DNA of 64,000 nt from an uncultured Alphaproteobacteria bacterium (GCA_963775315.1 CAVZIN010000007.1:841193-905192); one strand, 5' to 3'. Counted from the stretch's first letter, positions 7,638 through 20,128 are shown. Notes: generated by a model not told the origin, from the letters alone. Numbers and translations: made by a program.

Positions 7638-7859
7638 CTACGCCCGCGGGATCAGGTGGAGCATCATCAGCTCGTCGGGGGTGAGGGAACGGCGCGCGCC
7701 GTCCCCCGGATAGACCTCCCACGCGTCGCGCTCGACGGTCTGCCAATCGAACCCGACGATCAGGGCGAGAGCGATGCGCGCCAGCGTCCGCCTCAGCCCC
7801 GCCTCGCGCGCGGGCGCGACGTAGCCCGGCGGGTCGTAGCGCTTCAGCACCCCGCTCAT
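7638..7859 (-). CDS. Small hypothetical protein (73 aa) co-transcribed downstream of the Rieske oxygenase pair
   Basis: ATGA start/stop overlap with the upstream Rieske gene, strong GC3 codon bias, and it fills the convergent gap. No recognisable domain. Confidence 0.4.
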   Translation of the reverse strand: MSGVLKRYDPPGYVAPAREAGLRRTLARIALALIVGFDWQTVERDAWEVYPGDGARRSLTPDELMMLHLIPRA

Positions 7860-8881
7860 GACGCAAGCCTCGATTCGGGCTCGCCCTCGGCGGCGAGCAG
7901 GTCCTGGAGCATGCGGCGCATGCGCAGCCCCGGCGCGTCGCTCATCATGTGGAACTCCAGCGGATCCTTGTTGTCGAGCGGCACGTCGAATTCGGTCGAC
8001 TCCAGGATCTCCTTGTCTTCCAGCGTGACCTGCCGGTCGAAGGCGATGATGTCGGCGGCCTTCGCCTCTTCCTCGGTGTCGCTGCGGTAGCAGAACTGGA
8101 CCACCATCGCGCGGTCGTCGGCCATCGGCGTCGCCGCGGTGATGATGGTGTGCTGGAGCCCGTGCGGATAGGTGATGCCCAGCCGGCGCACGAACGGCAT
8201 GTACCACGTGGAGTGGTTCTTCCGCACCGTCTCCTCGGAATTCGCCCCGCCGAGATATTTCTGCGAGACGGCGCCGCGGTTCATGACCTTGTGCTCGGCG
8301 AAGATGTGGAAGCCATAGTCGAACGGCTCGATCTCCACTTTGGCGGGTACCGGCTGCCGGTCGTTGCCGAAACTTGCGCGGTGGGTGAAGGCGATGTGCG
8401 CGGCGTCGAACGAGTTCTCCATCAGCCGCAGCGGCGCGATCTTCCACTCCTCGTAGAACTGGTCGATGCGCCGCAGCCCGTCGGTCTCGTCCGGGAAGTC
8501 CGGAAGCGGGGCCAGCGGCTCGTCGAGCGCGACCCACACATGGCCGTAACGGACCGCCGTGCGGTAGGAGGGCACGCGGAGCTCCGCCGGCACCTTTTTC
8601 GGATCGGGCTGCTGCGGGATGGTGACGCAGCGTCCGGTGCCGTCGTACTGCCAGCCGTGATAACCGCAGGTGGCGAGCCCTTCGGCGAGATAGCCCTTGG
8701 AGATTTTCGCCGTGCGATGACAGCACCGGTCACGGATGCAGGCGACCGAGCCGTCGGCTTCGCGCCACAGCACGATGTTCTCGCCCAGCAGGGTGAACGG
8801 CACCAGCCCGGCGTCGAGATGGCCTTCGCGGAGCACCGGGTACCAGAAGCGCCGCAGGCTCTTTTGCATCGTGGTCAGCAT
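7856..8881 (-). CDS. Alpha-only Rieske non-heme iron oxygenase (NdmA/NdmB-like N-demethylase/hydroxylase family)
   Basis: Rieske ligands CCHRTAKIS...CGYHGWQY, mononuclear Fe motif ENSFDAAHIAFTH, an N-terminal RRFWYPV block resembling NdmA RHFWHPV, and an ATG at 8881 with an AAAGGA RBS. Confidence 0.85.
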   Translation of the reverse strand: MLTTMQKSLRRFWYPVLREGHLDAGLVPFTLLGENIVLWREADGSVACIRDRCCHRTAKISKGYLAEGLATCGYHGWQYDGTGRCVTIPQQPDPKKVPAELRVPSYRTAVRYGHVWVALDEPLAPLPDFPDETDGLRRIDQFYEEWKIAPLRLMENSFDAAHIAFTHRASFGNDRQPVPAKVEIEPFDYGFHIFAEHKVMNRGAVSQKYLGGANSEETVRKNHSTWYMPFVRRLGITYPHGLQHTIITAATPMADDRAMVVQFCYRSDTEEEAKAADIIAFDRQVTLEDKEILESTEFDVPLDNKDPLEFHMMSDAPGLRMRRMLQDLLAAEGEPESRLAS

Positions 8882-8897: not shown

Positions 8898-9950
8898 TCA
8901 GGCCGCAGCCGTCGTGTCGCGTTCGTCGGGTGTGCCGGTCGTGCGCGCCTCGCGCTCGCCGTGCGCCGCAAGCAGCTTCATCAGCCGCTTGCGCATTTCG
9001 AGACCGGGCCGGTCGGACCACATGTGCAGCTCCTCGCGGCGGCGCAGATCGAGTGGCACGTCCCAGTCGCACGCCTCCAGGATGGCGCGGTCCTCGTGCG
9101 TCACCTGGCGGTCGAAGGCGATGACACCCTCGGCCGGCGCGTCCGCCTCGGTGTCGTTGCGCACCGCGAACTGGGTCAGGATCGAGCGGCGGTCGTCGAT
9201 CGGCGCGGTCAGGGTGATCAGGATGTGTACGAGCCCGTTCGGGTAGGTGATCTTCATCTTGCGGCTGAACGGCATCCACCACGTCTTTTCGTAGTTGCGG
9301 ACCGTCCGGTCGCCGGATTCGCGCAGGTTTCGCTTCTGGATGTCCGGGTTCTGCACCGGCACGATGGTCCGCATGACGAACCCGTCATCCGTGTCGGTGA
9401 TGCTCATCGGCTGCGGCTCGGGCTCCTCGATGATCCCGAACGACGCGCGGTGAACGAAGGAGAAGTGCGCGTTGTCGAATGAGTTCTCCATGATGCGGAG
9501 GCCTGGCGCATCCCACTCCTCCCAGAACTCGTGAAACTGCCGGAAGCCGGTCATGGCGGCCTCGGGCAGCGCCGGAATGTCGTACAGCGGTTCCTCCAGG
9601 GCGACCCAGACATAGCCGTAGCGCTCGGCGCAGTGGTAAGACTTGACCCGGGCGCCCGAGGGCACCGCGCCGTTCCGCGCCTGGGGCACCTTCACGCACA
9701 GCCCGTCCGGGCGGTAGGTCCAGCCGTGATAGCCGCAGACGATGTTCCCGTCTTCGCACCAGCCGTGGCTCAGCTTGGCGGTGCGGTGGCAGCAGCGGTC
9801 GGCCACGGCGGCGGGCGCGCCGTCCGGCCCATTCCACAGCACGATGTCCTCGCCCAGCAGGCGGAACGGCCGCGGCGCGTCGCCAAGCTCTGACATTGGC
9901 ATCAGCGCGTACCAGAACCGGCGAAAAACGGGCTGCTGCGTCACGAGCAT
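8898..9950 (-). CDS. Alpha-only Rieske non-heme iron oxygenase, paralog 2 (NdmA/NdmB-like)
   Basis: CCHRTAKLSHG...CGYHGWTY and ENSFDNAHFSFVH motifs, AGGAGG RBS before the ATG at 9950, and a sigma-54 promoter about 40 bp upstream. Confidence 0.85.
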   Translation of the reverse strand: MLVTQQPVFRRFWYALMPMSELGDAPRPFRLLGEDIVLWNGPDGAPAAVADRCCHRTAKLSHGWCEDGNIVCGYHGWTYRPDGLCVKVPQARNGAVPSGARVKSYHCAERYGYVWVALEEPLYDIPALPEAAMTGFRQFHEFWEEWDAPGLRIMENSFDNAHFSFVHRASFGIIEEPEPQPMSITDTDDGFVMRTIVPVQNPDIQKRNLRESGDRTVRNYEKTWWMPFSRKMKITYPNGLVHILITLTAPIDDRRSILTQFAVRNDTEADAPAEGVIAFDRQVTHEDRAILEACDWDVPLDLRRREELHMWSDRPGLEMRKRLMKLLAAHGEREARTTGTPDERDTTAAA

Positions 9951-9989: not shown

Positions 9990-10006
9990 TTGCAAGTTCC
10001 GTGCCA
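9990..10006 (-). promoter_or_regulatory. Sigma-54 (RpoN) promoter for the Rieske oxygenase operon
   Basis: Minus strand reads TGGCACGGAACTTGCAA, a GG-N10-GC match to TGGCACG-N4-TTGCW, about 40 nt upstream of the start at 9950. Confidence 0.7.
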
Positions 10007-10060: not shown

Positions 10061-10984
10061 CTAGCCCGTGGGCAGCGCTGCCCGAAACGGATGCGTCCGC
10101 ATCCAATGTCGTGCGACGTCGACGCGGCGCGCGATCCATACGTCGCGATGGCCGAGTACGTGATCGAGGAAGCGCTCGACACCGGCGGCGCGCGCGGCAT
10201 GGCCGCTGACCCGGAGGTGGAGCGAGAGGGTCATCGCCCGCGGCCGCCGCGCCGACTCCCGGTACAGGACGTCGAACGCATCGGTCATGTAGGTGACGAA
10301 GTCGCTGGACGTGGCGAACCAGCCGCGGCCGTACTTGTTGTCGTTGTGACTGAAGGTGTGGGGCAGGACCAGGAACGGCTTGCCGCGATCGGTCGTCCAG
10401 AACGGCAGGTCGTCGGCGTAGGAGTTGCAGTCGTAGAGGAAGCCGCCCTCTTCGATCAGCAGCCGTCGGGTGTTGAGCGACGGCCCGTAGCGGCAATACC
10501 AGCCGAGGGGCCGTTCACCCATTGTGCGGGTGAGCGAGGCGACGGCGCCGACGATGTGGTCGCGCTCCGCCGCCTCGTCCATGTTGAACTGCTCGACCCA
10601 GCGCCAGCCGTGGCAGAGCACTTCCCACCCCGCCTCTCGGATCGCCTGGGCAGCGTCGGGATTGCGCTCGAGGGCGAGCGCCGCACCGCTTACCGTCACG
10701 GGCAAGTCGCGCTCACGGAACAGATCGTGCAGCCGCCAGAATCCGACCCGGCTTCCGTATTCGAACAGGGACTCGGCGGCGAGGTCGCGCCCCTTGACGC
10801 CGAGGTCCGGGGCGCCGGCGTCGGTCATCGTGGCCTCCGACCTGCCGTCGCCGTCGGGCACCGAGTACTCCGACCCCTCCTCGTAATTCAGCACCAGGTT
10901 GAACGCCATGCGGGCGCCGTTGGGCCAGCACGGGTCGGGCGGATTGCGCCCGTACCCGACCATGTCGCGCGGATAGTCGGTCAT
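10061..10984 (-). CDS. Divergent PuuE-type allantoinase / polysaccharide deacetylase-family cyclic-ureide hydrolase
   Basis: MTDYPRDMVGYGRNPPDP...NYEEG...FEYGSRVGFWRL resembles PuuE, but the active-site region differs from the canonical copy at 23390. ATGA overlap with the allA stop. Confidence 0.8.
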   Translation of the reverse strand: MTDYPRDMVGYGRNPPDPCWPNGARMAFNLVLNYEEGSEYSVPDGDGRSEATMTDAGAPDLGVKGRDLAAESLFEYGSRVGFWRLHDLFRERDLPVTVSGAALALERNPDAAQAIREAGWEVLCHGWRWVEQFNMDEAAERDHIVGAVASLTRTMGERPLGWYCRYGPSLNTRRLLIEEGGFLYDCNSYADDLPFWTTDRGKPFLVLPHTFSHNDNKYGRGWFATSSDFVTYMTDAFDVLYRESARRPRAMTLSLHLRVSGHAARAAGVERFLDHVLGHRDVWIARRVDVARHWMRTHPFRAALPTG

Positions 10985-11481
10985 GCGGCGATTTCCACGC
11001 GGAGCCCCAGCCGCCCTTTCAGGGCCGCCGACTGGTGGTCGGTCCGGTTGGTGTCGGCGAGCTCGAGATTGAGGAAGTCCATGCAGGGCGCACGGAAATA
11101 AGGGCCCGCATGCCAGGTGCCGCAGTGGAGCTTCACGATGGCGGGTCCGACGATGGTGAAGGCGCGGAGCGTGCCGGGTTCGGGCAGCGCCTGTGGGTCG
11201 TCGAACGCCGCGGGTGGCGCCACCGCGAGGAACCATTCGAGCCCGAGGGCCGATCCCAGGCACTGCGTCACCTTCCGGTGTCGCGCCAGTGCCTCGAAGG
11301 CCAACCCGTGGTCGGGCACGCGCATGATGTAGAGCCGCGGCGTGCCGCCGAATTCCAGCCGCGCGTCCTCCGGACCGAACGGCGTGCCGTAGCCGGAGGG
11401 CGCGATCAGCTCGCCGAATGGCGCAAACGCGGCGGCGGTGATCGGCTCGGGCCGGAGGCGGATCAGGCGAGGTTCGATCAT
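10981..11481 (-). CDS. allA: Ureidoglycolate lyase (AllA family)
   Basis: 166 aa with the AllA-family PFG motif (EPITAAAFAPFGELI), consistent size and ureide-pathway context. Confidence 0.8.
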   Translation of the reverse strand: MIEPRLIRLRPEPITAAAFAPFGELIAPSGYGTPFGPEDARLEFGGTPRLYIMRVPDHGLAFEALARHRKVTQCLGSALGLEWFLAVAPPAAFDDPQALPEPGTLRAFTIVGPAIVKLHCGTWHAGPYFRAPCMDFLNLELADTNRTDHQSAALKGRLGLRVEIAA

Positions 11482-12734
11482 GACACGCGGTCCTTTGCGC
11501 GTGCCATGGCGAGGGGTGTGTCGGTATAGAGGCGGCGCAGCTTCGCCCGGTGGTCAGGCCCGTCCCGTCCGGCCGTCGCGCGCACCGGATCGGCGCCTTG
11601 CAGCAACGGCGCGCTCGCATCCCACGAGAAGCGGCTGACGAAGGCGATACGCTCGGCGCGGGCGGCCTCGAACGCGGCGGTGAAGGCGGGGGCGTCGAAC
11701 CTGTGGGCCGCCGCCTCCGCGAAGGACGTGAGGAGCGCGCACCCGTCCTCGATCGCCTGGGTCGCGCCCTGGCCGAGCGTGGGCGCCATGGCATGGCTGG
11801 CGTCGCCGAGGAACAGCACATGGCCGCTTGTGTCGCGGTAGGCGGCGTCGATTTCCTGCGCGCGCGACCAGTGCAGCGGGCCCTCGCACCGGGCCAGCGC
11901 GTCGATCAGCCACGCGCAGCTCGGATCGGGAGCGCCGGCGTGGGGGCGGTAGGCGGCGCAGAGACGGTTCCGGTCGGCGCAGCCTTCCGGCACCTCGCCA
12001 TTCGCGTCGGTCGGCAGGTTGCCGGACAGGTAGACCACCCCGTCCGCCAGACGGAAGGCGAGCAGGCGGTTCGGCCCGGTGTAGAACTGCTCGAGATCGT
12101 CGATCCCGCTCGCGTCGGCGTCGGGCAGCAGCAGCCGGAAGTTGGCGACGCCGAGGAAGCGGGTCGCCGGAGTGCCGAGAAGCCGCTCGCGGAGGGGCGA
12201 GTAGCGCCCGTCGGCGGCGATCAGCAGGTCGATCCCTTCAATCCGCTTGCGCGCGCCGGTCACGTCGTCGATCAGGGTGAAGGAGATCGCCCCGCGTCGG
12301 CGCCCGGGCGTGATGGCGACGTCCTCGATGCGGGCGCGGAACCGCGCGAGCCGGCGCAGCGGCGCGCGGATGGCACGATAGAGCTCCGACCAGCGGATAC
12401 GGATGCCGTCCGTTTCCGCAACCTCTTCAAGCGGGATGAAATAGAGCAGGCGCCCGCCCGAGAGCGCGGCGCGCCATTGCCGCCATGGCAGGCTCGCCGC
12501 CTGCAGGTCCCGCGCGAGGGCGGGGAGGGTCGCCGCCAGAGCGCCCATCGCATTCGGTCCGACATTCAGCCCGTTGCCGGCATGGTCGTGGTCGTCCGGC
12601 CCGACCTTTTCGACCGCGATCAGCTCGACGTCCGGCCGTCCGGCGAGTCCTGCCGCGACCACGCCGCCGGCGACGCCGAGGCCGATCACGGCGACGCGCA
12701 GCGGCAGGCGCGCATTCACGCTGGCATTCGGCAT
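11478..12734 (-). CDS. FAD-dependent monooxygenase (HpxO/TmuM-like urate-type hydroxylase candidate)
   Basis: N-terminal GxGxxG (RVAVIGLGVAGG), DG and GD(A/S)xH flavin monooxygenase motifs, operon with allA and puuE-like, sigma-54 promoter upstream. Confidence 0.8.
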   Translation of the reverse strand: MPNASVNARLPLRVAVIGLGVAGGVVAAGLAGRPDVELIAVEKVGPDDHDHAGNGLNVGPNAMGALAATLPALARDLQAASLPWRQWRAALSGGRLLYFIPLEEVAETDGIRIRWSELYRAIRAPLRRLARFRARIEDVAITPGRRRGAISFTLIDDVTGARKRIEGIDLLIAADGRYSPLRERLLGTPATRFLGVANFRLLLPDADASGIDDLEQFYTGPNRLLAFRLADGVVYLSGNLPTDANGEVPEGCADRNRLCAAYRPHAGAPDPSCAWLIDALARCEGPLHWSRAQEIDAAYRDTSGHVLFLGDASHAMAPTLGQGATQAIEDGCALLTSFAEAAAHRFDAPAFTAAFEAARAERIAFVSRFSWDASAPLLQGADPVRATAGRDGPDHRAKLRRLYTDTPLAMARAKDRVS

Positions 12735-12768: not shown

Positions 12769-12784
12769 TGCAAATTCCGTGCCA
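12769..12784 (-). promoter_or_regulatory. Sigma-54 promoter for the FAD monooxygenase-allA-puuE-like operon
   Basis: Minus strand reads TGGCACGGAATTTGCA, about 35 nt upstream of the start at 12734. Confidence 0.7.
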
Positions 12785-12912: not shown

Positions 12913-12930
12913 TTGGCACGATTCTTGCGA
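12913..12930 (+). promoter_or_regulatory. Sigma-54 promoter for the isochorismatase-cupin-CocE operon
   Basis: TGGCACGATTCTTGCGA. The 22-mer GGTTGGCACGATTCTTGCGAGG is identical to the promoter at 20156-20177 on the opposite strand. Confidence 0.75.
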
Positions 12931-12940: not shown

Positions 12941-13720
12941 ATGGATGCTCGCGAAGATACGAAGCGATCGTTGGGCACGGCGCCCGCGAACCGCTGGCGG
13001 GTGGACGCGGCGGAAGTCGATCTCGTCCGGGCCCAGCCGGTGCCTCGCCCGGTGCGGATCGCCGCGACGCCGCAGAACCTGACGCTCGACCTTGCGCGCA
13101 CGGCGATCCTGGTGATCGACATGCAGAACGATTTCTGCCACCCGGACGGGTGGCTTGCCTCGATCGGCGTCGACGTGTCGCCGCTGCGCGCCCCGATCGC
13201 CCCGCTCGCGGGGCTCCTGCCGGCACTGCGCCAGGCCGGGGTGCCGGTGGTGTGGGTCAATTGGGGCAACCGGCCGGACCGGCTCAACCTCAGCCCGTCC
13301 TTGCTGCACGTCTACAAGCCGACCGGCGAGGGCGTCGGGCTCGGCGATACTCTGGTCAGCGGTGCGCACGTTCTTCAGAAGGGAAGCTGGTCGGCCGCCA
13401 TCGTCGACGACCTCGCGCAAGAGCCCGTCGACATCCATGTCGACAAGTACCGGATGAGTGGATTTTGGGACACGCCGCTCGATTCCATCCTACGCAATCT
13501 AGGAGTGGCGACCTTGCTGTTCGCCGGCGTCAATGCCGACCAGTGCGTACTCTGCTCGCTTCAGGACGCGAACTTCCTGGGACACGATTGTGTCCTCCTC
13601 GAAGACTGCACCGGGACGAGCTCGCCGAAGTTCTGCTTGGAGGCGACGCTCTACAATGTGCGCCAGTGCTTCGGCTTCGTCGCGGGGTCCGGGGCCTTGG
13701 TCGCGGCGTTGGCAAGATGA
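12941..13720 (+). CDS. Isochorismatase-family cysteine hydrolase (RutB / N-carbamoylsarcosine amidase / maleamate amidase-like)
   Basis: LVIDMQNDFCHPDGW and a C-terminal block YRMSGFWDTPLDSILRNLGV...GVNADQCVL close to RutB. GAGGTG RBS and a sigma-54 promoter 10-30 bp upstream. Confidence 0.85.
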   Translation: MDAREDTKRSLGTAPANRWRVDAAEVDLVRAQPVPRPVRIAATPQNLTLDLARTAILVIDMQNDFCHPDGWLASIGVDVSPLRAPIAPLAGLLPALRQAGVPVVWVNWGNRPDRLNLSPSLLHVYKPTGEGVGLGDTLVSGAHVLQKGSWSAAIVDDLAQEPVDIHVDKYRMSGFWDTPLDSILRNLGVATLLFAGVNADQCVLCSLQDANFLGHDCVLLEDCTGTSSPKFCLEATLYNVRQCFGFVAGSGALVAALAR

Positions 13721-14160
13721 AGGCGATCCTCAAGCATCCCGGCGAGCTGCGCGCGTTTCGCATCAGCCCGGGCGACACCAACTACCTCGCCTGCGTGTTC
13801 GACCCGGTCGAGCACGGCGAGGTCGGCTTCACCGCGGTGATCGAAATCTTCGAGCAGGGCGGGAAGACGCCGCCCAATACCCACCGCGCGGCGCACGAGA
13901 TGTTCCTGGTGCTGGAGGGCGAGGGGATCGCGACCTGCGACGGCCGCGCCGAGAAGGTACGGACGGGCGATGTGCTGTTGGTCCGGCCCGGCGCCGAACA
14001 CGTGGTCGAGAACACCGGGCCGGGGCGGCTCTACTGCTTCACCGTCATGGTGCCGGACGAGGAATTCGCGGCGCTGATCCGGGGCGGCATCCCGGTCGCG
14101 CTAGACGCCGCCGACCTCGCCGTCATCACCCGCGCACCGGGCTTCGCGCCGCATGGCTGA
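13717..14160 (+). CDS. Cupin-domain protein
   Basis: 147 aa single cupin (G(X)5HxH-like THRAAHEMFLVLEGEG ... PGAEH) with ATGA coupling to the upstream gene. Confidence 0.7.
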   Translation: MKAILKHPGELRAFRISPGDTNYLACVFDPVEHGEVGFTAVIEIFEQGGKTPPNTHRAAHEMFLVLEGEGIATCDGRAEKVRTGDVLLVRPGAEHVVENTGPGRLYCFTVMVPDEEFAALIRGGIPVALDAADLAVITRAPGFAPHG

Positions 14161-15820
14161 CGGGAGTCCGGAAATTGTCTCCATGCGCACCCGCGACGGG
14201 GTGCGGCTTGACGCGGACGTCTATTTCCCGCCGGCGACACTGAAGGGCCCGCACCCGGTATTGATGATGCGCCAGCCCTATGGACGGCGCATTGCCTCGA
14301 CCGTGACCTTTGCCCACCCGTCCTGGTACGCGGCACACGGCTATATCGTGGTGATCCAGGACGTGCGCGGGCGCGGGACGTCGGAGGGCGTGTGGCGGGC
14401 CTTCGAGAACGAGGCGGCGGACGGGGCCGACGCGGTGCGCTGGGCTGCCACGCTGCCGGGGGTGAGCGGGGCCGTCGGCATGTACGGCTTTTCCTACCAG
14501 GGCGCGACGCAGCTCCTTGCTGCGGGCGGGCTCGCCGCGGAGGACGGAACGACCGGCGCGCTCAAGGCCATAGCCCCGGCGATGACCGGGTGGCGCATTC
14601 ACGACGACTGGGCCTATGAGGGTGGAGCGTTCGCGCTGGCCGCCAACGTGTCGTGGGGCCTCCAGACGGCCGCGGAGACCGCGCGGCTCGCCAGGGACGA
14701 GGAAGCGTTCGTGGCACTCGCCCGCGCCGCCGCCGCGCCGCCGCTGCGGGACGCCATTCCGGCGGTCCCGGACATATTGCGGCGCTACGCCAGCTACGCC
14801 CACTACATGGAGTGGGTGGGCAATCCCGGCAACGGCCCCTACTGGGACCGCATCGCGCCGGCCGCGCAGATGGGGCGCGCCGACCTTCCGGCGCTGCACG
14901 TCGGCGGCTGGTACGATTCGTTCCTCGCCGGCACGCTCGCCGCCTATCGCGAGCTCTCGGCGCGGGCTCGAAGCCCGCAGCATCTTGTCGTCGGCCCTTG
15001 GACCCATCTCGACTGGACGGGGCGGCATTCCGCCTACGACGCCGGCCCGGCGGGCGCAAACACGATCGACGCGCTGCAGCTCCGCTGGTTCGACCATTGG
15101 TTGAAGGGCGCGGCGAACTGGGACGCGGTCGAACGGCCGGTGCAGCTTTTCGACATGGGTGCCAACGTGTGGCGCGGGTTCGAGAGGTGGGACGCGGCGC
15201 CGTCGCACGCGCTGCACTTGGCGAGCGATGGGCGAGCGGCGCTGATGCCGTGCGCCGGCCGGCTCACGGACGTGGCGGGACCGCCCGGCGCGAACGTGGT
15301 GGTGCTCGACCCATGGCGACCGCCGCCGAGCCATGGCGGCCATGCGGCCCCGCCGGTCGGGCGGGTCGACCGCGCCGCCATCGACGACCGGCCCGACGTC
15401 TGCGCCTACACGACGGAGCCGCTCTCCGGGCCGCTGCGCCTCGCCGGGGCCGTCGCGGCGGAGCTCTGGGTGCAGGCCGACCAGTCGAGCTTCGATGTCT
15501 CCGCCGTGCTATCGGAGCTCCGCCCCGACGGCAAGGTGGTGAATTTGACCCAGGGCTATCGCCGCGTGGCGCCCGGCGAAGGGGCAGCGCCGCTCCGCGT
15601 CGAGATGCGCGGCACGGCGGCGACGATCCCGGCCGGAACCGCGCTCCGCCTCTCGCTCGCGCCGTCCTGCTTTCCGGCCTTCCCGGTGAACGGGGGCGAC
15701 GGCGCGCCGCCCGCGGTCGCACGGCGAATCGACCAGCGGATCGTGACGCTCACCATTCGCCACGGGTCCGGCACACCGTCGCGCCTGCTGCTCCCGATCG
15801 TCGCTGAGGGGTCCGCGTGA
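14153..15820 (+). CDS. CocE/NonD-family hydrolase (X-Pro dipeptidyl-peptidase S15-like alpha/beta hydrolase)
   Basis: 555 aa with the GxSYxG nucleophile elbow (MYGFSYQG) and a C-terminal beta-sandwich domain. Confidence 0.8.
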   Translation: MADGSPEIVSMRTRDGVRLDADVYFPPATLKGPHPVLMMRQPYGRRIASTVTFAHPSWYAAHGYIVVIQDVRGRGTSEGVWRAFENEAADGADAVRWAATLPGVSGAVGMYGFSYQGATQLLAAGGLAAEDGTTGALKAIAPAMTGWRIHDDWAYEGGAFALAANVSWGLQTAAETARLARDEEAFVALARAAAAPPLRDAIPAVPDILRRYASYAHYMEWVGNPGNGPYWDRIAPAAQMGRADLPALHVGGWYDSFLAGTLAAYRELSARARSPQHLVVGPWTHLDWTGRHSAYDAGPAGANTIDALQLRWFDHWLKGAANWDAVERPVQLFDMGANVWRGFERWDAAPSHALHLASDGRAALMPCAGRLTDVAGPPGANVVVLDPWRPPPSHGGHAAPPVGRVDRAAIDDRPDVCAYTTEPLSGPLRLAGAVAAELWVQADQSSFDVSAVLSELRPDGKVVNLTQGYRRVAPGEGAAPLRVEMRGTAATIPAGTALRLSLAPSCFPAFPVNGGDGAPPAVARRIDQRIVTLTIRHGSGTPSRLLLPIVAEGSA

Positions 15821-15823: not shown

Positions 15824-17203
15824 TTATGCGAGCGGGGCGAAGGTGCGCATCTTGCCGGGGTTGAGAAGCCCGTAGGGGTCTGCGGTCAGCTTGAACCCAT
15901 GCTGGTCGCCGGCGATCTGCTTGTGCCGCGTACCGTCCTCCAGCGTGTAGACGTGCGGGTTGGCGATCATCGCGCCATGGGATTCGTGGTAGGCGATGAT
16001 CTCGTTCAGCCGCTTCTCGGTGGTGAAGCGCACCAGGGGCAGACCGGAGCAGGTGAGCTCGCCGGCATACTTGATGATCTCGAGGTGCATCGGGAGTTCG
16101 TCGCCGAACTTGGCGCGCATGTGCTGCACGGTCTCGAGCGCCCGGCCGGCCGGGTAGAGGATCTGCAAATAGGTCACCGACTTGTCCACCTTGAGCGCGT
16201 GCAGGGTGGTGTGGTTCCAGGTGTATTCGTAGAGCGGCGGGTAGGCGGCGCGGTCCTCGGTCGCGATGGAATCCTCGTCGTAGGTGAGCGTTCCGCGGTG
16301 CTCCTCGATCAGGTCGGCAAGAGCGACCATCGATCCCTCGGCAATCATGCAGATCACAATGTGCTTGCCCTCGGGCAGGATCGTGTTGAGGCGCGGAAAG
16401 TATTTCGGGATCGGCCAGGCGACAGGAGTCACCAGCTTCTTCACGATGCCGTCGGCCGCGCCGAGCGCGAAGGCGAAGAGACCGGCGTCGAGGAAATCGT
16501 CGAACGCCACCACCACGTCTCGCCACGGCCAGAGCGGCGTCAGCGGCATCTCGATCTCGGTGATGATCCCGGTCGTCCCGTACGCGTGGTTGACTACGTT
16601 GGCGGCCTTGCCCTTGAGGTCGAGGACGCGTGGTTCCGCCTCCGCCGTCACGACGCGGGCCCCGATCACGTTGCCCGGCTCGCGCAGCCCGCCGAACGTG
16701 ACCGAGCCGATGCCGCCGGAGCCGCCGGCCACGAACCCGCCGATGGTCGCGGTTCTCTTGGTCGAGGGATACATGCGCTGCTCCCAGCCGAACCGGCGGG
16801 TCTGGTGGTCGAGCTCGAGCATGTACTTGCCCGGACCGACGCGGACGCGGCCCGGTGAAATCTCGCGCACCTCGTTCATCTCGATCATGTCGAGCAGCAC
16901 GCCGCCGGAGAGCGGCACGGCTTGGCCGTAATTCCCGGTGCCGCCACCGCGTGCGGTGACCGGCACGCGGTGGCGCACGGCGGCGCGCATCACCGTCACC
17001 ACGTCAGCTTCCGAGCGGGGCGTGACGACGATCTCCGCGAGGCGGGTTTCGAGCTGAGGCTTCAGGATCGGACTGTACCAGAAGAAGTCGTGCGACTTCT
17101 TGCGGATATGGCGGGCGTCGCGCGTGTGCGGCACCGACCCGAGATCATCGAGGAAGGCGTCGAGGGCCCGCGAGGGCGGCGCGGCGGCGGCGAGGCGGCT
17201 CAT
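15824..17203 (-). CDS. FAD-linked oxidase (PCMH-type FAD-binding oxidoreductase)
   Basis: 459 aa, FAD-binding_4 motifs (ARGGGTGNYG...), and last gene of the creatininase operon. Confidence 0.85.
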   Translation of the reverse strand: MSRLAAAAPPSRALDAFLDDLGSVPHTRDARHIRKKSHDFFWYSPILKPQLETRLAEIVVTPRSEADVVTVMRAAVRHRVPVTARGGGTGNYGQAVPLSGGVLLDMIEMNEVREISPGRVRVGPGKYMLELDHQTRRFGWEQRMYPSTKRTATIGGFVAGGSGGIGSVTFGGLREPGNVIGARVVTAEAEPRVLDLKGKAANVVNHAYGTTGIITEIEMPLTPLWPWRDVVVAFDDFLDAGLFAFALGAADGIVKKLVTPVAWPIPKYFPRLNTILPEGKHIVICMIAEGSMVALADLIEEHRGTLTYDEDSIATEDRAAYPPLYEYTWNHTTLHALKVDKSVTYLQILYPAGRALETVQHMRAKFGDELPMHLEIIKYAGELTCSGLPLVRFTTEKRLNEIIAYHESHGAMIANPHVYTLEDGTRHKQIAGDQHGFKLTADPYGLLNPGKMRTFAPLA

Positions 17204-18516
17204 ACGGCGGGCGCCCCCAGCACGGCGTCCAGCATTCGATAATCGGGAGGGGCGGTATCGATCGGCTTGCCCGACCGCAGCACGATGCGATCGTTCTGTG
17301 GGCGGCTCAGCATCTCGGAATAGCTGCGCCCGCGCAGGACCACCAGATCGGCCGTTGCGCCGCGCGCGATCTTGCCGGCATCGCTCGCCCCCATGACCGA
17401 GGCCGGAGTCGACGTGATCGCTGCCGGCCAGCCGTCATAGTCGGAGTCGAGGTGGGCGATGCGGGTCGCCTGGGTGAACACTTCCACCATGTCGAGGTCG
17501 CCGAACCCGCAGAACGGGTCGCGCGTGTTGTCGGACGAGATCGAAACCGGGATGTCGTGGCTCTTGAACTCCTGAAGCAGCGTGACGCCGCGATATCGCG
17601 GCGTGCGGCCGGGCGTGCGGTCCTGAAGGTACATGTTGCACATCGGGAGGCTGACGATGGAGAGCCCGCAGTCGGCCGCGAGCCCGAGCACCGTCTCGAC
17701 ATACTCGTCAGACTGAACCGAAAAGGCGCAGCAATGGCCGCAATTCACCTTGCCGCGGAAGTTGCGGCGCAGCGCGGCTTCGGCGACGGCCTTGAGCGAG
17801 CGGGCCTCGGGATCGAGCCCTTCGTCAATGTGGAAGTCGAGGTTGAGCCCGCGCTCGGCCGCGAGCAGGAACACGCGGTCGAGCAGCGCCGGCGCTTCCT
17901 TCTCGATATAGCTCACCGCGCCCAGAACGCCGCCGCTTTCGGCCACCAGGTCGGCCATCGCCTTGCCGGCGTCCCGATCGGCGAAGAACGAGATCGGCAC
18001 CAGGTTGACCGGTTGCAGCTCGATGCGCCCGGCCCAGCGCTCGCGCACCTCGCGCACCACCGGCCAGCTTCGCACGTTCTGGGGCGGTAGGCTGTCGACA
18101 TGGGTGCGGATCGCCTTGGTGCCGTGGGCGTAGGCGCAGGCTAGGCTGAATTCCATCCGCGCGCGCACGTCGTCCGGCGACCAGTTCGCCTCGCGGTCGG
18201 CCGCGACGTTGGTGTAGGCGCCCATGAACGTGCCGTCCGGGTTGCGCCGGCGCGGCCAGATATGGCCCTTGTCGAGGTGGGTGTGGAGCTCGACGAAGGA
18301 GGGCCAGACGAGCCCGTCGTCGGCGTCGTGGACCGGGCCATCCACCGGCGCCGAGCCGGGCTTCGCAATTGCCGCGATCTTGCCATCCGCGACGTGGATG
18401 TCGACGCGAACGAGACCGTCGGAAAGCGTGGGGGCGCCGGCCGGGATCAGGTCGAGGCAGATTGCCGGGACCGTGGCGTTCGTCAGCCAATGGTCCTTGA
18501 GTTCGAGCGCGCTCAT
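17200..18516 (-). CDS. Cytosine/creatinine deaminase-like amidohydrolase (CodA/AtzC family)
   Basis: MSALELKDHWL... start with ATGA overlap to the ATPase stop, and the HTHLDKG metal motif; 439 aa. Confidence 0.8.
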   Translation of the reverse strand: MSALELKDHWLTNATVPAICLDLIPAGAPTLSDGLVRVDIHVADGKIAAIAKPGSAPVDGPVHDADDGLVWPSFVELHTHLDKGHIWPRRRNPDGTFMGAYTNVAADREANWSPDDVRARMEFSLACAYAHGTKAIRTHVDSLPPQNVRSWPVVREVRERWAGRIELQPVNLVPISFFADRDAGKAMADLVAESGGVLGAVSYIEKEAPALLDRVFLLAAERGLNLDFHIDEGLDPEARSLKAVAEAALRRNFRGKVNCGHCCAFSVQSDEYVETVLGLAADCGLSIVSLPMCNMYLQDRTPGRTPRYRGVTLLQEFKSHDIPVSISSDNTRDPFCGFGDLDMVEVFTQATRIAHLDSDYDGWPAAITSTPASVMGASDAGKIARGATADLVVLRGRSYSEMLSRPQNDRIVLRSGKPIDTAPPDYRMLDAVLGAPAV

Positions 18517-19304
18517 GATTGGCGCCCCATCGCATCGGTCAGCATCGCGGATACCTCGCGGCAGTAGTCGGCGTAGACGTTCGAGGTGCGGAATGCCTCG
18601 GTCCGGGGGTAGGGGGCGTCGATCTCGATCTCGCCCACGACGCGGCCCGGCCGCGCGGCCATCACGATGATGCGGCGCGAGAGGTAGACCGACTCGAAAA
18701 CGCTGTGGGTAACGAAGATCACCGTCCAGTCGTTGTCGCCCCAAAGCTCCAGCAGGTCGTTGTTGAGCTTGAAACGCGTGATTTCGTCGAGGGCGGCGAA
18801 GGGCTCGTCCATCAACAGGAGGCGCGGCTTCACGATCATGCCGCGCGCGATGGAGACGCGCATCTTCATGCCGCCCGAAAGCTCGCGCGGGTAGGAATTC
18901 TCGAAGGCGGAGAGCCCGACGCGCGCGATGGCCGCCTTCACATCCGGCGCGGCCTTCGTCCGCGAGACGCCCTCGAGGCGGAGGGGGAGGTAGACGTTCT
19001 CGAACACCGTGGCCCAGGGCATCAGGGTCGGCTCCTGGAACACGAAGCCCACTTCGCGCTCCGGGTTGCCGCCTGCGTCGTAGGACGAGGTGGGCCAGTC
19101 GACCGTGCCGGCGCTCACCCCGGACAGGCCCGAGATGAGCTTGAGTGCCGTCGACTTGCCGCAGCCAGACGGGCCCAGCAGGCTGACGAAATCGTGCTCG
19201 TGGATGTCGATGTCGAGCCCGCGCAGCGCAATCGTTCCATTTTCGAACGTCTTGGAGACGCCCTTGATGCTGACCAGCGGGCGATCGGCCGTGATTACCG
19301 CCAT
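18513..19304 (-). CDS. ABC transporter ATP-binding protein (NitT/TauT family)
   Basis: Walker A GPSGCGKST, signature LSGGMKMR, Walker B LLLMDEP, GGAGAAGG RBS. Confidence 0.9.
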   Translation of the reverse strand: MAVITADRPLVSIKGVSKTFENGTIALRGLDIDIHEHDFVSLLGPSGCGKSTALKLISGLSGVSAGTVDWPTSSYDAGGNPEREVGFVFQEPTLMPWATVFENVYLPLRLEGVSRTKAAPDVKAAIARVGLSAFENSYPRELSGGMKMRVSIARGMIVKPRLLLMDEPFAALDEITRFKLNNDLLELWGDNDWTVIFVTHSVFESVYLSRRIIVMAARPGRVVGEIEIDAPYPRTEAFRTSNVYADYCREVSAMLTDAMGRQS

Positions 19305-20128
19305 GACGACGCCTTCTCCATGCTGTGGCGCGAGATGATGCGGTCGAGCGGGTAGCGCGCGACCTCGTCCAGAAGCGCGACCAGTGCATTGGCCGCGTGG
19401 TCGATCAGCAGCTTTCCGCGCTCCGGATCGGCGTCGAGCGCATTGCCGCAGGCGCCATCGGGGTGCAGGTCCTGGGTTTGCCAGCCGAACCCGATCTTCC
19501 CTTCGGCGCGGAGGTAGGTGTAGCTCCGCGCCACGTCCTCGGCGGCGGATTGGAAGTTCGCGAGGCGCGCGTGGTTCACGAGCTCGGGTCGCGCCGCCAT
19601 CATGATCGAGGTCTCGACCGCGCCGCCGTGGATGCCGAACTCGAGCTCGTCGTCGCTGAACAGGCCCTTCGGCCGCCCGAGTCCGCCCGGTCCCACCGTG
19701 ACGACGAACATGCCGAGCCGGACGCGCAGATCGCGGGCGACGATGTCGGCGATCTGCGGCTGTCCGCCATGGGTGTTGAGGATCAGCATGCGGCGCACGC
19801 CGGTCCGATGGACCAACTCGCCGATCTCGGTCCAGAGGCGCGTCAAAGTCTCGGCCGACAGGGTAAGCGTTCCGGGAAATTCCTGGTGCTCGTTCGATTT
19901 GCCGACGTTCATCGCCGGTAGGACGAGGACGGGCAGTGCCTCGGGCGCGCGCGCCACGGCCTCGCCGACGATCGCCCGGTTGATCGCGGCGTCGACGCAA
20001 ACCGGGAGATGCGGCCCGTGCTGTTCAATGGCGGCGACCGGCAGCAGGGCGACGATGCGCGCGGCATCCAGTGCCGCGAACTCCGTGGTCGTCAGCTCTT
20101 CCCAATAGCGGCTCGGCAATCGGCTCAT
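19295..20128 (-). CDS. Creatininase-family amidohydrolase (creatinine amidohydrolase-like)
   Basis: 277 aa with creatininase-fold motifs (HGPHLP, NTHGG), GGGAAGGG RBS, and a sigma-54 promoter about 30 bp upstream. Confidence 0.85.
   Translation of the reverse strand: MSRLPSRYWEELTTTEFAALDAARIVALLPVAAIEQHGPHLPVCVDAAINRAIVGEAVARAPEALPVLVLPAMNVGKSNEHQEFPGTLTLSAETLTRLWTEIGELVHRTGVRRMLILNTHGGQPQIADIVARDLRVRLGMFVVTVGPGGLGRPKGLFSDDELEFGIHGGAVETSIMMAARPELVNHARLANFQSAAEDVARSYTYLRAEGKIGFGWQTQDLHPDGACGNALDADPERGKLLIDHAANALVALLDEVARYPLDRIISRHSMEKASSWR

What the first reader, a model, noticed from the sequence alone, without database searches (positions are those of the whole stretch)
10061..12734. Second, divergent PuuE-type hydrolase in an operon with an HpxO/TmuM-like FAD monooxygenase and AllA
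The window has two polysaccharide-deacetylase-type allantoinase genes. The copy at 23390 is almost collinear with characterised PuuE. The copy at 10061 keeps the N-terminal DYPRDMVGYG and the FEYGSRVGFWRL core but differs through the catalytic region (SVPDGDGRSEATMTDAGAPDLGVKGRD and HTFSHNDNKYG). It is ATGA-coupled to a ureidoglycolate lyase and to an FAD monooxygenase, all under a sigma-54 promoter. A separate cytochrome-c urate hydroxylase, PuuD, is already present at 26241. This redundancy suggests a parallel branch for a substituted substrate, for example methylated urates and methylallantoins. The enzymes downstream of trimethylallantoin in the caffeine C-8 oxidation pathway are not known.
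Basis: inference. Interest (0 to 1): 0.7.

Follow-up and report, generated by a model that had tools for sequence, protein, structure and literature searches.

The report
Conserved hydroxylase–PuuE-like–AllA-like ring-opening module
The second "allantoinase" is real, but it belongs to a widespread uncharacterised three-gene module (flavin hydroxylase, PuuE-like ring hydrolase, AllA-like lyase) that is never found beside uric-acid genes elsewhere. It therefore most likely opens a different nitrogen-rich ring whose identity is still unknown.

Summary
The sequence observation holds. PuuE2 (10061-10984, minus strand) is ATGA-coupled to an AllA-family gene (10981-11481) and a group-A FAD monooxygenase (11478-12734). 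An exact sigma-54 motif lies upstream. A canonical PuuE (23390) and PuuD (26241) lie nearby.

PuuE2 keeps the PuuE catalytic residues but falls below NCBI's PuuE cut-off (356 vs 425 bits; the canonical copy scores 560). It differs in the recognition loops. Its 120 closest relatives all share its non-canonical motifs.

The monooxygenase is not HpxO/TmuM-like (58 vs 500 bits). Its family splits in two. In the window's subfamily, 31 of 36 other loci carry a PuuE2-type or AllA-like gene next to it.

OHCU decarboxylase, PuuD and AllC flank canonical PuuE in 26, 19 and 6 of 48 loci, but in 0 of 29 module loci.

Recurrent companions are NdmA-like Rieske oxygenases, a deaminase, an isochorismatase-family amidase, a creatininase homologue and NMT1-type transporters. 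Seven sigma-54 motifs tie the island into one probable nitrogen-scavenging regulon.

Best reading: hydroxylation, then ring-amide hydrolysis, then loss of urea, on a cyclic ureide other than allantoin. The methylurate/methylallantoin idea is neither confirmed nor excluded. I found no published description.

The parts
11478..12734 (-). FAD monooxygenase (FADMO, subfamily I), 418 aa, first gene of the operon
   Evidence: PF01494, 30.5 bits. HpxO model 58 bits vs cut-off 500. An NJ tree places it in the subfamily that is always linked to PuuE2-type and/or AllA-like genes.
10981..11481 (-). AllA-family (ureidoglycolate-lyase fold) protein, 166 aa, divergent subfamily
   Evidence: PF04115, 38 bits (above the gathering cut-off of 23), but AllA equivalogs score about 30 bits vs 212-260. 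hhalign to E. coli AllA gives 96% probability, with the RH..TQ and HR..WH motifs kept. The AF2 model (pLDDT 92.8) best matches 2BDR, 1XSQ and 1YQC, TM 0.72-0.79.
10061..10984 (-). PuuE2: PuuE-family cyclic amidohydrolase, non-canonical clade A, 307 aa
   Evidence: TIGR03212 355.7 bits, below the cut-off of 424.6. Matches PDB 3CL6 at 336 bits, with catalytic E35, H125, W129 and H256 kept. Clade motifs are PHTF..NDNKY.RGW and SLHLRVSGH.
12770..12784 (-). sigma-54 -24/-12 motif upstream of FADMO
   Evidence: TGGCACGGAATTTGC. There are 7 exact matches in the window against 0.11 expected. Similar motifs lie upstream of FADMO in 7 of 22 related loci.
9992..10006 (-). sigma-54 motif upstream of the Rieske pair
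   Evidence: TGGCACGGAACTTGC.
8898..9950 (-). Rieske/VanA_C oxygenase 1 (NdmA-like), 350 aa
   Evidence: PF00355 plus PF19112. Closest solved structures are NdmA (121 bits), SxtDIOX/SxtT and NdmB (87 bits). Orthologues occur in L006, L088 and L126.
7856..8881 (-). Rieske/VanA_C oxygenase 2, 341 aa
   Evidence: PF00355 plus PF19112. 49% identical to Rieske 1.
12914..12928 (+). sigma-54 motif of the divergent operon
   Evidence: TGGCACGATTCTTGC.
12941..13720 (+). Isochorismatase-family amidohydrolase (RutB/BiuH-like)
   Evidence: PF00857, 119 bits. RutB model 139 bits vs cut-off 378; BiuH model 119 vs 370. PDB RutB 132 bits, biuret hydrolase 109 bits. Orthologues at 61-64% identity occur in L006, L155, L143 and L157.
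13717..14160 (+). Small cupin
   Evidence: PF07883. Weak similarity to ureidoglycine aminohydrolase (E = 3e-4). Conserved next to the isochorismatase gene in L006 and L155.
14153..15820 (+). CocE/NonD-family hydrolase
   Evidence: TIGR00976, 381 bits. Conserved in L006, L155, L143, L157 and L167.
15824..17203 (-). FAD_binding_4 oxidase
   Evidence: PF01565. Orthologues occur in L006, L155 and L126.
17200..18516 (-). Cytosine-deaminase-family amidohydrolase
   Evidence: NF005759, 602 bits, above the cut-off of 403. PDB CodA 122 bits.
18513..19304 (-). ABC transporter ATPase
   Evidence: Translation carries Walker motifs. Orthologues occur in L006 and L155.
19295..20128 (-). Creatininase-family protein (not a true creatininase). 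A sigma-54 motif lies upstream at 20160-20174.
   Evidence: PF02633, 233 bits. Creatininase equivalog 90 bits vs cut-off 235. Sigma-54 motif. Orthologues occur in L006, L155, L126 and L089.
20361..21239 (+). Rieske-less VanA_C oxygenase paralog, with a sigma-54 motif at 20315-20329
   Evidence: In-frame loss of about 53 residues that hold the Rieske cluster ligands. Only PF19112 is detected.
23390..24313 (+). Canonical PuuE (shown for contrast). It sits in the SBP-permease-PuuE1-AllC-Urad-PuuD cluster (21388-27449).
   Evidence: TIGR03212, 560 bits. AllC NF006775, 546 bits. PF09349. PF06181. Sigma-54 motifs at 21326 and 25657.
28731..29729 (+). 2OG-Fe(II) oxygenase, a recurrent companion of the module
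   Evidence: PF14226 plus PF03171. Homologues lie beside the module in L006, L089, L095, L115 and L155.

Best explanation
FADMO, the AllA-like protein and PuuE2 form a conserved three-enzyme catabolic module. It is distinct from uricolysis and extracts nitrogen from a small cyclic ureide or amide other than allantoin.

Inferred mechanism, by analogy with HpxO, PuuE and AllA chemistry:
1. The NAD(P)H/FAD monooxygenase hydroxylates the electron-rich ring carbon next to a ring carbonyl (the position equivalent to C5 of urate or of a hydantoin enol).
2. PuuE2 uses the metal-independent Glu/His/Trp machinery of PuuE to hydrolyse the ring amide. The product is an N-carbamoyl-alpha-hydroxy acid, that is, ureidoglycolate or a substituted analogue.
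3. The AllA-like lyase eliminates urea (or a substituted urea) and leaves glyoxylate or a 2-oxoacid.

No allantoate-type intermediate step is needed. That fits the absence of allantoicase or AllC from the module.

The accessory genes probably trim the natural substrate and process the ureido products. They are the NdmA-like Rieske oxygenases, a cytosine- or 8-oxoguanine-deaminase-type amidohydrolase, a creatininase homologue, a RutB/BiuH-like isochorismatase, a cupin, a CocE/NonD hydrolase and an NMT1-type ABC importer.

The whole island, including the canonical ureide genes, is read from sigma-54 promoters, so it is probably switched on by nitrogen limitation.

Shown here: gene structure, family placement, conserved catalytic residues, conserved synteny, and lack of linkage to uricolysis genes.
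Inferred: the reaction order, the chemistry and the substrate class.
For: PuuE2 is a separate subfamily:
- It scores 355.7 bits against a cut-off of 424.6, while the window's PuuE1 scores 560. Five other clade members score 359-417, all below the cut-off.
- The 120 closest relatives (61-90% identity) all carry non-canonical loop motifs.
- The catalytic residues are kept. The differences lie in the alpha1-alpha2 loop, which is implicated in substrate recognition (PMC3084791, PMC11424739).

The three genes travel together:
- A midpoint-rooted NJ tree of 85 FADMO-family sequences splits in two. In subfamily I, 31 of the 36 loci other than the window have a PuuE2-type (58-85% identity) and/or AllA-like gene adjacent. 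Four of the other five have 1.3 kb of flank or less on a side. The fifth, L104, has 6-10 kb of flank on both sides and lacks both genes within it.
- Subfamily II is instead next to a small conserved protein plus an amidase, and often a Mo hydroxylase. It lacks PuuE2- and AllA-like neighbours, apart from one PuuE-like gene (58% identity) about 5 kb away in L121.
- Independent hit lists share contigs (same longest-contig length) for at least 12 PuuE2/FADMO pairs and at least 7 AllA-like hits.

The module is not linked to uricolysis elsewhere:
- Urad, PuuD and AllC lie beside canonical PuuE in 26/48, 19/48 and 6/48 loci, and beside the module in 0/29.

The AllA-like protein is a genuine family member:
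- It has the AllA fold (TM 0.72-0.79) and keeps AllA signature motifs.

Accessory genes recur:
- The accessory set recurs in the beta-proteobacterial or unclassified loci L006 and L155. In L133 it recurs with a non-orthologous Rieske oxygenase and deaminase.

Regulation:
- There are 7 exact sigma-54 motifs against 0.11 expected, each placed upstream of an operon start.
Against: - No enzyme of the module or of its subfamilies has been characterised, so the chemistry rests on analogy.
- In this window the module lies only 12 kb from canonical ureide genes and shares their promoter type. A role in a purine-derived branch therefore cannot be excluded.
- Some module loci lack the AllA-like gene (L001). 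The AllA-like subfamily also occurs without the other two genes (L173).
- The isochorismatase and the cupin could stand in for allantoate amidohydrolase and ureidoglycine aminohydrolase. That would rescue an allantoin-analogue route.
- PuuE-family enzymes also hydrolyse glutarimides (BpIH; PMC11424739), so the ring need not be a hydantoin.
Confidence: 0.5

Rival explanations
1. The operon is a parallel uricolytic branch for N-methylated purines. FADMO hydroxylates methylurates, the product decays spontaneously to methylallantoin, PuuE2 opens it, and the isochorismatase, cupin and AllA-like enzymes finish the job. The NdmA/B/C-like oxygenases remove methyl groups.
For: - The Rieske pair directly downstream has NdmA as its closest solved relative (121 bits; NdmB 87 bits).
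- A Rieske-less paralog mirrors NdmC (PMC4408171).
- TM-HIU is reported to decay spontaneously to trimethylallantoin, so missing urah/urad genes are not fatal (PMC4408171).
- The isochorismatase is RutB/BiuH-like, and the cupin weakly resembles ureidoglycine aminohydrolase.
- The module shares the sigma-54 regulon with PuuE1, AllC, Urad and PuuD.
Against: - FADMO scores 58 bits against the HpxO cut-off of 500 and is no closer to HpxO than to NicC or tropone monooxygenase. TmuM is described as highly similar to HpxO.
- No tmuH/tmuD-like or cdh-like genes are present. The local Mo enzyme passes the 4-hydroxybenzoyl-CoA reductase model.
- No NdmD or NdmE is present in the window.
- Rieske genes accompany only a minority of module loci.
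- The module is found in lake, soil and mat metagenomes and in cyanobacterial MAGs.
Confidence: 0.15
2. Simple redundancy. The operon is a soluble, NAD(P)H-dependent back-up for canonical uricolysis: urate hydroxylase, a second allantoinase, and the cell's ureidoglycolate lyase.
For: - The three family names match three uricolysis steps.
- No other AllA-family gene is present in the window.
- The promoters are of the same type as those of the ureide genes.
Against: - 0 of 29 module loci carry Urad, PuuD or AllC, against 26/48, 19/48 and 6/48 of canonical PuuE loci.
- Known urate oxidases co-occur with urah and urad (PMC4562309).
- All three proteins fall far below the curated equivalog cut-offs.
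- The recognition loops of PuuE2 are remodelled across a large clade.
Confidence: 0.05
3. The ring is six-membered or an imide (a uracil, barbiturate or other pyrimidine derivative, or a glutarimide- or maleimide-type imide). PuuE2 acts as a cyclic imidase or amidase. The isochorismatase, rather than the AllA-like protein, removes the ureido or amide group.
For: - PuuE-family enzymes accept glutarimides (BpIH; PMC11424739).
- Sister PuuE-like clades lie next to AtzD/TrzD (the barbiturase/cyanuric-acid hydrolase family), AtzH-like and AtzG-like genes.
- NMT1/THI5-type binding proteins typically bind pyrimidines (my own knowledge).
- A RutB-like amidohydrolase, a cytosine-deaminase homologue and a 2OG oxygenase of the thymine-hydroxylase fold class recur.
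Against: - An acyl-urea product of barbiturate-type ring opening is not a substrate for lyase-type cleavage, yet the AllA-like gene is the most tightly linked partner.
- PuuE2 is only distantly related to the characterised cyclic imide hydrolase lineage (HpPgdA/CIH/HxnM): 3QBU scores 40.7 bits against 336 for PuuE (PMC9304392).
Confidence: 0.2

Closest known systems
Allantoinase PuuE (Pseudomonas fluorescens, PDB 3CL6; TIGR03212)
   Same: - NodB/polysaccharide-deacetylase fold and the same length.
- 336-bit match to 3CL6.
- The Glu-His-Trp triad and the catalytic His are conserved.
- The predicted reaction type is the same: metal-independent hydrolysis of a small cyclic amide.
   Different: - Below the equivalog cut-off (356 vs 425 bits).
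- The alpha1-alpha2 recognition loop is remodelled, as are the PYTLDxNDMRF and HCRLIGRP segments.
- The clade is never found next to Urad, PuuD or AllC elsewhere. Instead it is fixed next to a dedicated FAD monooxygenase and an AllA-like gene.
Ureidoglycolate lyase AllA (E. coli b0505; PDB 1XSQ, 1YQC, 2BDR)
   Same: - Same fold (TM 0.72-0.79).
- Pfam PF04115 is met.
- The RH..TQ and HR..WH motifs are conserved.
   Different: - 20-29% identity only.
- Scores about 30 bits against equivalog cut-offs of 212-260.
- It forms its own subfamily of about 1,150 detected members.
FAD-dependent urate hydroxylase HpxO and trimethylurate monooxygenase TmuM
   Same: - Group-A flavoprotein monooxygenase architecture.
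- The proposed hydroxylation of an enol-type ring carbon is HpxO-like chemistry.
   Different: - 58 bits against a cut-off of 500.
- Not the best hit among characterised enzymes.
- No HIU hydrolase or OHCU decarboxylase partners.
Caffeine N-demethylase system NdmABCDE of Pseudomonas putida CBB5
   Same: - Two tandem Rieske/VanA_C oxygenases whose closest solved relative is NdmA.
- A paralog that lacks the Rieske domain, as NdmC does.
   Different: - Distant homology only (121 bits to NdmA and 87 to NdmB over about 330 residues).
- No NdmD reductase or NdmE GST-like protein in the window.
- The Rieske-less copy arose from a local paralog (56% identity to Rieske 1).
ATP-dependent creatinine/N-methylhydantoin pathway (creatinine deaminase, N-methylhydantoinase, N-carbamoylsarcosine amidase)
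   Same: The cluster carries homologues of creatinine (cytosine) deaminase, creatininase and the isochorismatase-family N-carbamoylsarcosine amidase, together with a hydantoin-type ring hydrolase.
   Different: - No HyuA/HyuB ATP-dependent hydantoinase.
- The creatininase homologue is below the creatininase cut-off (90 vs 235 bits).
- An oxygenase plus lyase route would be a different, oxidative solution.

Membership tests
Allantoinase PuuE (TIGR03212 equivalog) | Score at or above the curated cut-off of the equivalog model | tested here: not met
   355.7 bits against a cut-off of 424.6. Five clade relatives score 359-417. The window's PuuE1 scores 560.
Allantoinase PuuE (TIGR03212 equivalog) | Metal-independent Glu-His-Trp triad and the catalytic His (PuuE Glu36, His259) | tested here: met
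   E35 in NYEEG, H125 and W129 in HGWRW, and H256 in LHLR all align with 3CL6. Residue roles are taken from PMC11424739.
Allantoinase PuuE (TIGR03212 equivalog) | Genomic association with urate-pathway genes (urad, puuD/uox, allantoate-degrading enzymes) | tested here: not met
   0 of 29 module loci against 26/48 (Urad), 19/48 (PuuD) and 6/48 (AllC) canonical PuuE loci. In this window alone the two sets lie 12 kb apart.
Allantoinase PuuE (TIGR03212 equivalog) | Hydrolysis of (S)-allantoin to allantoate | not testable with these tools
   Needs an enzyme assay.
Ureidoglycolate lyase AllA | Pfam PF04115 membership and the AllA fold | tested here: met
   38.1 bits against a gathering cut-off of 23. 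Foldseek top hits are 2BDR, 1XSQ and 1YQC, E = 1e-10 to 1e-9, TM 0.72-0.79. hhalign gives 96% probability.
Ureidoglycolate lyase AllA | Score above the NCBIfam AllA equivalog cut-offs | tested here: not met
   Best score is 30.5 bits against a cut-off of 260. The L006 orthologue scores 41.6 against 230.
Ureidoglycolate lyase AllA | Cleavage of ureidoglycolate to glyoxylate and urea | not testable with these tools
   Needs an enzyme assay.
HpxO/TmuM urate hydroxylases | Score above the HpxO equivalog cut-off, or HpxO as the nearest characterised relative | tested here: not met
   NF033623 scores 58 bits against a cut-off of 500. Better NCBIfam hits are PRK06753 and PRK06847 (72 and 71 bits). 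PDB ranking: 8GSM 65, tropone monooxygenase 53, HpxO 44, NicC 43.5.
HpxO/TmuM urate hydroxylases | Co-occurrence with HIU hydrolase and OHCU decarboxylase | tested here: not met
   No Urad homologue in any of the 80 FADMO-family metagenome loci or in the other PuuE2-type loci. This was tested at locus level only, not genome-wide.
NdmA/NdmB-type Rieske N-demethylases | Rieske [2Fe-2S] domain plus VanA_C catalytic domain, with NdmA as the nearest solved relative | tested here: met
   PF00355 plus PF19112. NdmA scores 121 bits over residues 6-333.
NdmA/NdmB-type Rieske N-demethylases | Dedicated NdmD-type reductase (and NdmE for the Rieske-less subunit) encoded nearby | tested here: not met
   No reductase or GST-like gene appears among the annotated window genes.
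Cyclic imide hydrolase lineage (CIH / HxnM / HpPgdA) | Closest relationship to HpPgdA (3QBU)-type proteins | tested here: not met
   3QBU scores 40.7 bits against 336 bits for PuuE 3CL6. The lineage description is from PMC9304392.
Sigma-54-dependent promoter | TGGCAC-N5-TTGC motif correctly placed upstream of the operon | tested here: met
   7 exact matches against 0.11 expected, each 20-60 bp upstream of an operon start. No activator gene (GAFTGA motif) is present in the window.

The most novel reading that the evidence does not exclude
The module is an ATP-independent, oxidative route for hydantoin-type rings, and here specifically for creatinine-derived nitrogen.

Proposed route:
1. Creatinine is deaminated by the cytosine/creatinine-deaminase homologue to 1-methylhydantoin.
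2. The NdmA-like Rieske oxygenases remove the N-methyl group.
3. FADMO hydroxylates C5 to give 5-hydroxyhydantoin.
4. PuuE2 opens the ring directly to ureidoglycolate.
5. The AllA-like lyase yields glyoxylate and urea (or methylurea, if demethylation comes later).

This would bypass the puzzling ATP-consuming N-methylhydantoinase of the known pathway.

Every functional group of creatinine (exocyclic amine, N-methyl, imidazolone ring) has a matching conserved enzyme in the cluster. In L133 the deaminase and the Rieske oxygenase are non-orthologous, but both are still present.
Probability: 0.2. Interest if true: 0.8.

Novelty: new variant of a known kind. Interest (0 to 1): 0.58.

Why it matters
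- Some members of this clade are currently named 'allantoinase PuuE', and many of their partner genes 'ureidoglycolate lyase/hydrolase' or 'salicylate hydroxylase', in public annotations. That inflates the inferred uricolytic capacity of genomes and metagenomes.
- Treating the three genes as one co-evolving module turns hundreds of vague annotations into a single testable pathway for scavenging nitrogen from a small N-heterocycle.
- If the substrate is a hydantoin or creatinine-type ring, it would be a new oxidative, ATP-free solution to a step that known pathways pay ATP for.
- If the substrate is a methylated ureide, it would fill the unknown lower part of the caffeine C-8 pathway.
- Either way, three enzymes and a short list of substrates would be enough to settle it.

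Tried and rejected
- **Cyclic imide hydrolase (CIH/HxnM) membership.** Rejected. That lineage groups with HpPgdA (3QBU), which scores 40.7 bits against PuuE2, compared with 336 bits for PuuE (PMC9304392).
- **The neighbouring three-subunit Mo hydroxylase (1628-5830) as a caffeine-dehydrogenase analogue.** Rejected. Its large subunit passes the 4-hydroxybenzoyl-CoA reductase alpha model (1184 bits, cut-off 995). A loose 'MoL' cluster does co-occur with FADMO subfamily II, but not specifically with the module.
- **The genome-contig scan with PuuE2.** It returned mostly canonical PuuE and a third clade. It was useful only as a control set, and the window's own genome was not among the species representatives.
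- **Context of the third PuuE-like clade (52-60% identity; L010-L042).** It is lineage-specific (SAR202 and others) and uninformative.
- **Mapping BpIH alanine-scan residues (R265, N220) onto PuuE2.** The numbering offsets were ambiguous, so this was not used.
- **Search for an HIU hydrolase in the window by the C-terminal YRGS motif.** None found.
- **Search for a sigma-54 activator in the window (GAFTGA motif).** None found.
- **The second flavoprotein (NAD_binding_9 / Lys_Orn_oxgnase type) beside the module in six loci.** I considered it as a possible HpyO relative. No model confirmed this, so it is left open.
- **The small protein next to FADMO subfamily II.** By eye it looked VOC/glyoxalase-like, but it has no Pfam hit, so I did not use that label as evidence.
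- **Literature.** Seven full-text searches found no description of this module. The PuuE (JBC 2008) and TmuM (J Bacteriol 2012) papers are not held.

Full report
**1. Observation**

The region holds three translationally coupled genes on the minus strand:
- an FAD monooxygenase (FADMO, 11478-12734, 418 aa);
- an AllA-family protein (10981-11481, 166 aa);
- a PuuE-type protein (PuuE2, 10061-10984, 307 aa).

Both junctions are ATGA overlaps, read directly in the sequence.

An exact sigma-54 -24/-12 motif, TGGCACGGAATTTGC, lies at 12770-12784, 36 bp upstream of the FADMO start. The pattern TGGCAC-N5-TTGC occurs seven times in the window, against 0.11 expected from shuffles.

A second PuuE gene (PuuE1, 23390-24313) is 51% identical to PuuE2. 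PuuD at 26241-27449 is confirmed (PF06181, 395 bits, plus a CVACH haem motif). The window is 66-73% G+C. Its exact proteins occur on a 2.06-Mb NCBI/ENA contig with no names attached. The closest PuuE2 in a species-representative genome is 85% identical and comes from an alphaproteobacterial MAG.

**2. What the three proteins are**

*PuuE2.* It matches the solved P. fluorescens PuuE end to end (3CL6, 336 bits). It keeps E35 (NYEEG), H125 and W129 (HGWRW) and H256 (LHLR). These correspond to the Glu-His-Trp triad and to the Glu36 and His259 proposed for PuuE catalysis (PMC11424739). However, it scores 355.7 bits on the NCBIfam PuuE equivalog, whose cut-off is 424.6, while PuuE1 scores 560.

*The AllA-like protein.* It passes Pfam PF04115 (38 bits) but scores only about 30 bits on AllA equivalogs with cut-offs of 212-260. 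A profile of 43 subfamily members aligns to E. coli AllA with 96% probability and 29% identity, and keeps the RH..TQ and HR..WH motifs. An AlphaFold model (pLDDT 92.8) finds AllA structures 2BDR, 1XSQ and 1YQC as best matches (TM 0.72-0.79).

*FADMO.* It is a group-A flavoprotein monooxygenase (PF01494), but the HpxO model gives 58 bits against a cut-off of 500. Uncharacterised PRK models score higher. Among solved structures, 8GSM (65 bits) and tropone monooxygenase (53) precede HpxO (44) and NicC (43.5). TmuM is described as highly similar to HpxO (PMC4408171), so 'HpxO/TmuM-like' is not supported beyond the superfamily level.

**3. A separate PuuE subfamily**

The 120 best database relatives of PuuE2 (61-90% identity) all carry GDGRSE..LT[DE]..GRDLAAES. 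They also carry either PHTF..NDNK[YF].RGW / SLHLRVSGHP (the PuuE2 type) or PYTLSNNDAKFG / GLHMRLIGHP. None has the canonical HGD..SEAFLSE / PYTLDxNDMRF / GLHCRLIGRP. Five representatives all fall below the PuuE cut-off, at 359-417 bits. Some are nevertheless named 'allantoinase PuuE' in public records.

**4. Conserved neighbourhood**

Individual loci:
- L006 (NCBI assembly GCA_050485425.1; PuuE2 70% identical) repeats nearly the whole window cluster. One operon is isochorismatase, cupin, CocE/NonD, ABC ATPase, permease, FAD_binding_4, creatininase, NMT1. It is divergent from FADMO, PuuE2, AllA-like. A Rieske/VanA_C oxygenase, an amidohydrolase and a 2OG-Fe(II) oxygenase lie nearby.
- L009 (Burkholderiales), L088 and L089 (Herbaspirillum) also carry all three core genes, in other orders.
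- L001 and L002 carry FADMO and PuuE2 only.

A metagenome scan with a FADMO alignment gave 80 further loci. A midpoint-rooted NJ tree of 85 FADMO sequences splits into two clades:
- In subfamily I (the window plus 36 other loci), 31 of the 36 have a PuuE2-type gene (58-85% identity) and/or an AllA-like gene adjacent. Four of the other five have 1.3 kb of flank or less on a side. The fifth, L104, has 6-10 kb of flank on both sides and lacks both genes within it.
- In subfamily II, the neighbours are a conserved protein of about 170 aa with no Pfam hit, an amidase-signature enzyme, an ABC transporter and often a three-subunit Mo hydroxylase. There are no PuuE2- or AllA-like neighbours, apart from one PuuE-like gene (58% identity) about 5 kb away in L121.

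The three independent protein hit lists also share contigs, judged by identical longest-contig lengths. There are at least 12 PuuE2/FADMO pairs and at least 7 AllA-like matches. The AllA-like subfamily is broader, though, and also occurs alone (L173).

**5. Not linked to uricolysis elsewhere**

Using the window's own Urad, PuuD and AllC as queries:
- canonical PuuE loci (64-74% identical to PuuE1) carry them in 26/48, 19/48 and 6/48 cases;
- the 29 module loci carry them in 0/29, and the other 58 FADMO-family loci in 0/58.

Known urate oxidases co-occur with urah and urad (PMC4562309), and tmuM is clustered with tmuH and tmuD (PMC4408171). No allantoicase or allantoate amidohydrolase accompanies the module either. 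Allantoate is not an AllA substrate. The tight FADMO-PuuE2-AllA-like linkage therefore suggests that the PuuE2 product feeds the lyase directly. That requires a hydroxyl rather than a ureido group on the ring carbon, which is what a preceding monooxygenase would supply. This step is inference.

**6. Accessory genes and regulation**

Rieske oxygenases:
- Downstream of PuuE2, with their own sigma-54 motif (9992-10006), lie two Rieske/VanA_C oxygenases. Their closest solved relative is the methylxanthine N1-demethylase NdmA (121 bits), followed by SxtDIOX/SxtT and NdmB.
- A third paralog (20361-21239) has an in-frame loss of about 53 residues that removes the Rieske cluster ligands. It keeps an intact ORF and has its own sigma-54 motif. 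This recalls NdmC (PMC4408171), but no NdmD or NdmE is present in the window.

Other companions:
- the isochorismatase is RutB/BiuH-like;
- the amidohydrolase at 17200-18516 passes a cytosine-deaminase model;
- the creatininase homologue is below the creatininase cut-off.

In L133 the module sits with an NMT1 binding protein, a deaminase-type amidohydrolase, a different Rieske mono-oxygenase and an isochorismatase. So the same functional set recurs with non-orthologous parts. L143 and L157 keep the accessory set but replace the module with the subfamily-II set.

The seven sigma-54 motifs precede FADMO, the Rieske pair, the isochorismatase operon, the creatininase operon, the Rieske-less gene, the SBP-permease-PuuE1-AllC operon and Urad-PuuD. 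No activator gene is present in the window. Control by NtrC under nitrogen limitation is a reasonable inference, but it is unproven.

**7. Interpretation**

Best supported (confidence about 0.5) is a distinct catabolic module that works in three steps:
1. it hydroxylates a small cyclic ureide or amide;
2. it opens the ring with PuuE chemistry;
3. it eliminates urea or a substituted urea with AllA chemistry.

It sits inside a nitrogen-scavenging island. The substrate is unknown.

A hydantoin-type ring fits the lyase step best. Creatinine or 1-methylhydantoin would account for the deaminase, the N-demethylase-like oxygenases, the creatininase homologue and the isochorismatase. This specific reading is speculative (about 0.2).

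Other readings:
- a pyrimidine or imide ring is about 0.2;
- plain redundancy is unlikely (about 0.05).

**8. Novelty**

The folds and reaction types are known. The subfamilies, their fixed association and their physiological substrate are not described in the literature I could search. I rate it a new variant of a known kind, of moderate-to-good interest, because three purified enzymes and a short substrate panel would settle it.

Noticed in passing
window 20361-21239 (+), with sigma-54 motif at 20315-20329: A third VanA_C oxygenase paralog, 56% identical to Rieske 1. A clean in-frame deletion of about 53 residues removes the Rieske [2Fe-2S] ligands, yet the ORF is intact and has its own sigma-54 motif. 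This mirrors the Rieske-less NdmC of the caffeine system, but no NdmD or NdmE is nearby. It could be a decaying copy or a partner subunit.
   Followed up: partly
window 9992, 12770, 12914, 20160, 20315, 21326, 25657: Seven exact TGGCAC-N5-TTGC motifs (0.11 expected), each just upstream of an operon start. They join the PuuE2 cluster and the canonical ureide genes (PuuE1, AllC, Urad, PuuD) into one probable sigma-54 regulon. No enhancer-binding protein gene is present in the window.
   Followed up: partly
L135, L152, L153, L160, L169, L171, L172 and others: The sister FADMO subfamily II is fixed next to a conserved protein of about 170 aa with no Pfam hit, an amidase-signature enzyme, an ABC transporter and often a three-subunit Mo hydroxylase. 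This is another uncharacterised N-heterocycle module.
   Followed up: partly
L143 and L157 compared with L006 and L155: The same accessory gene set is present (isochorismatase-cupin-CocE/NonD-ABC, porin, MFS, 2OG oxygenase, deaminase, Rieske oxygenase), but the FADMO-II/small protein/amidase set stands in place of FADMO-I/PuuE2/AllA-like. This suggests two alternative solutions within one pathway.
   Followed up: no
L003-L005, L090, L091: PuuE-like proteins of neighbouring subclades (65-71% identical to PuuE2) lie next to AtzD/TrzD-family, AtzH-like, AtzG-like/amidase and nitrile-hydratase-like genes. This points to other small cyclic ureide or triazine substrates for this family.
   Followed up: no
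window 616-7618: A three-subunit Mo enzyme whose large subunit (2112-4748) passes the 4-hydroxybenzoyl-CoA reductase alpha model (1184 bits, cut-off 995). It is flanked by an Amidohydro_2 protein (616-1863) and a LeuCD-like hydratase (5859-7618). Its role next to the nitrogen island is unclear.
   Followed up: partly
window 21388-27449: The canonical ureide cluster has PuuE, AllC, OHCU decarboxylase and PuuD. No HIU hydrolase (C-terminal YRGS) was found anywhere in the window.
   Followed up: partly
L089 11748-12653 and 1579-2805: The Herbaspirillum locus has a second, very divergent polysaccharide-deacetylase-like gene (29% identical to PuuE2) after the creatininase homologue. It also has a second FADMO-I paralog next to a flavin reductase and an NAD_binding_9 flavoprotein.
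   Followed up: no
L095, L099, L102, L133, L158, L089: A flavoprotein of 480-520 aa of the NAD_binding_9 / Lys_Orn_oxgnase type sits directly after the AllA-like gene in several module loci. Its relation to the HpyO urate hydroxylase family could not be tested.
   Followed up: partly
window 30945-32027, 38281-40237, 41009-42664: Further NMT1-type binding proteins, a permease and a large Amidohydro_3 enzyme lie downstream. They suggest more uptake and hydrolysis systems for N-heterocycles in the same island.
   Followed up: no
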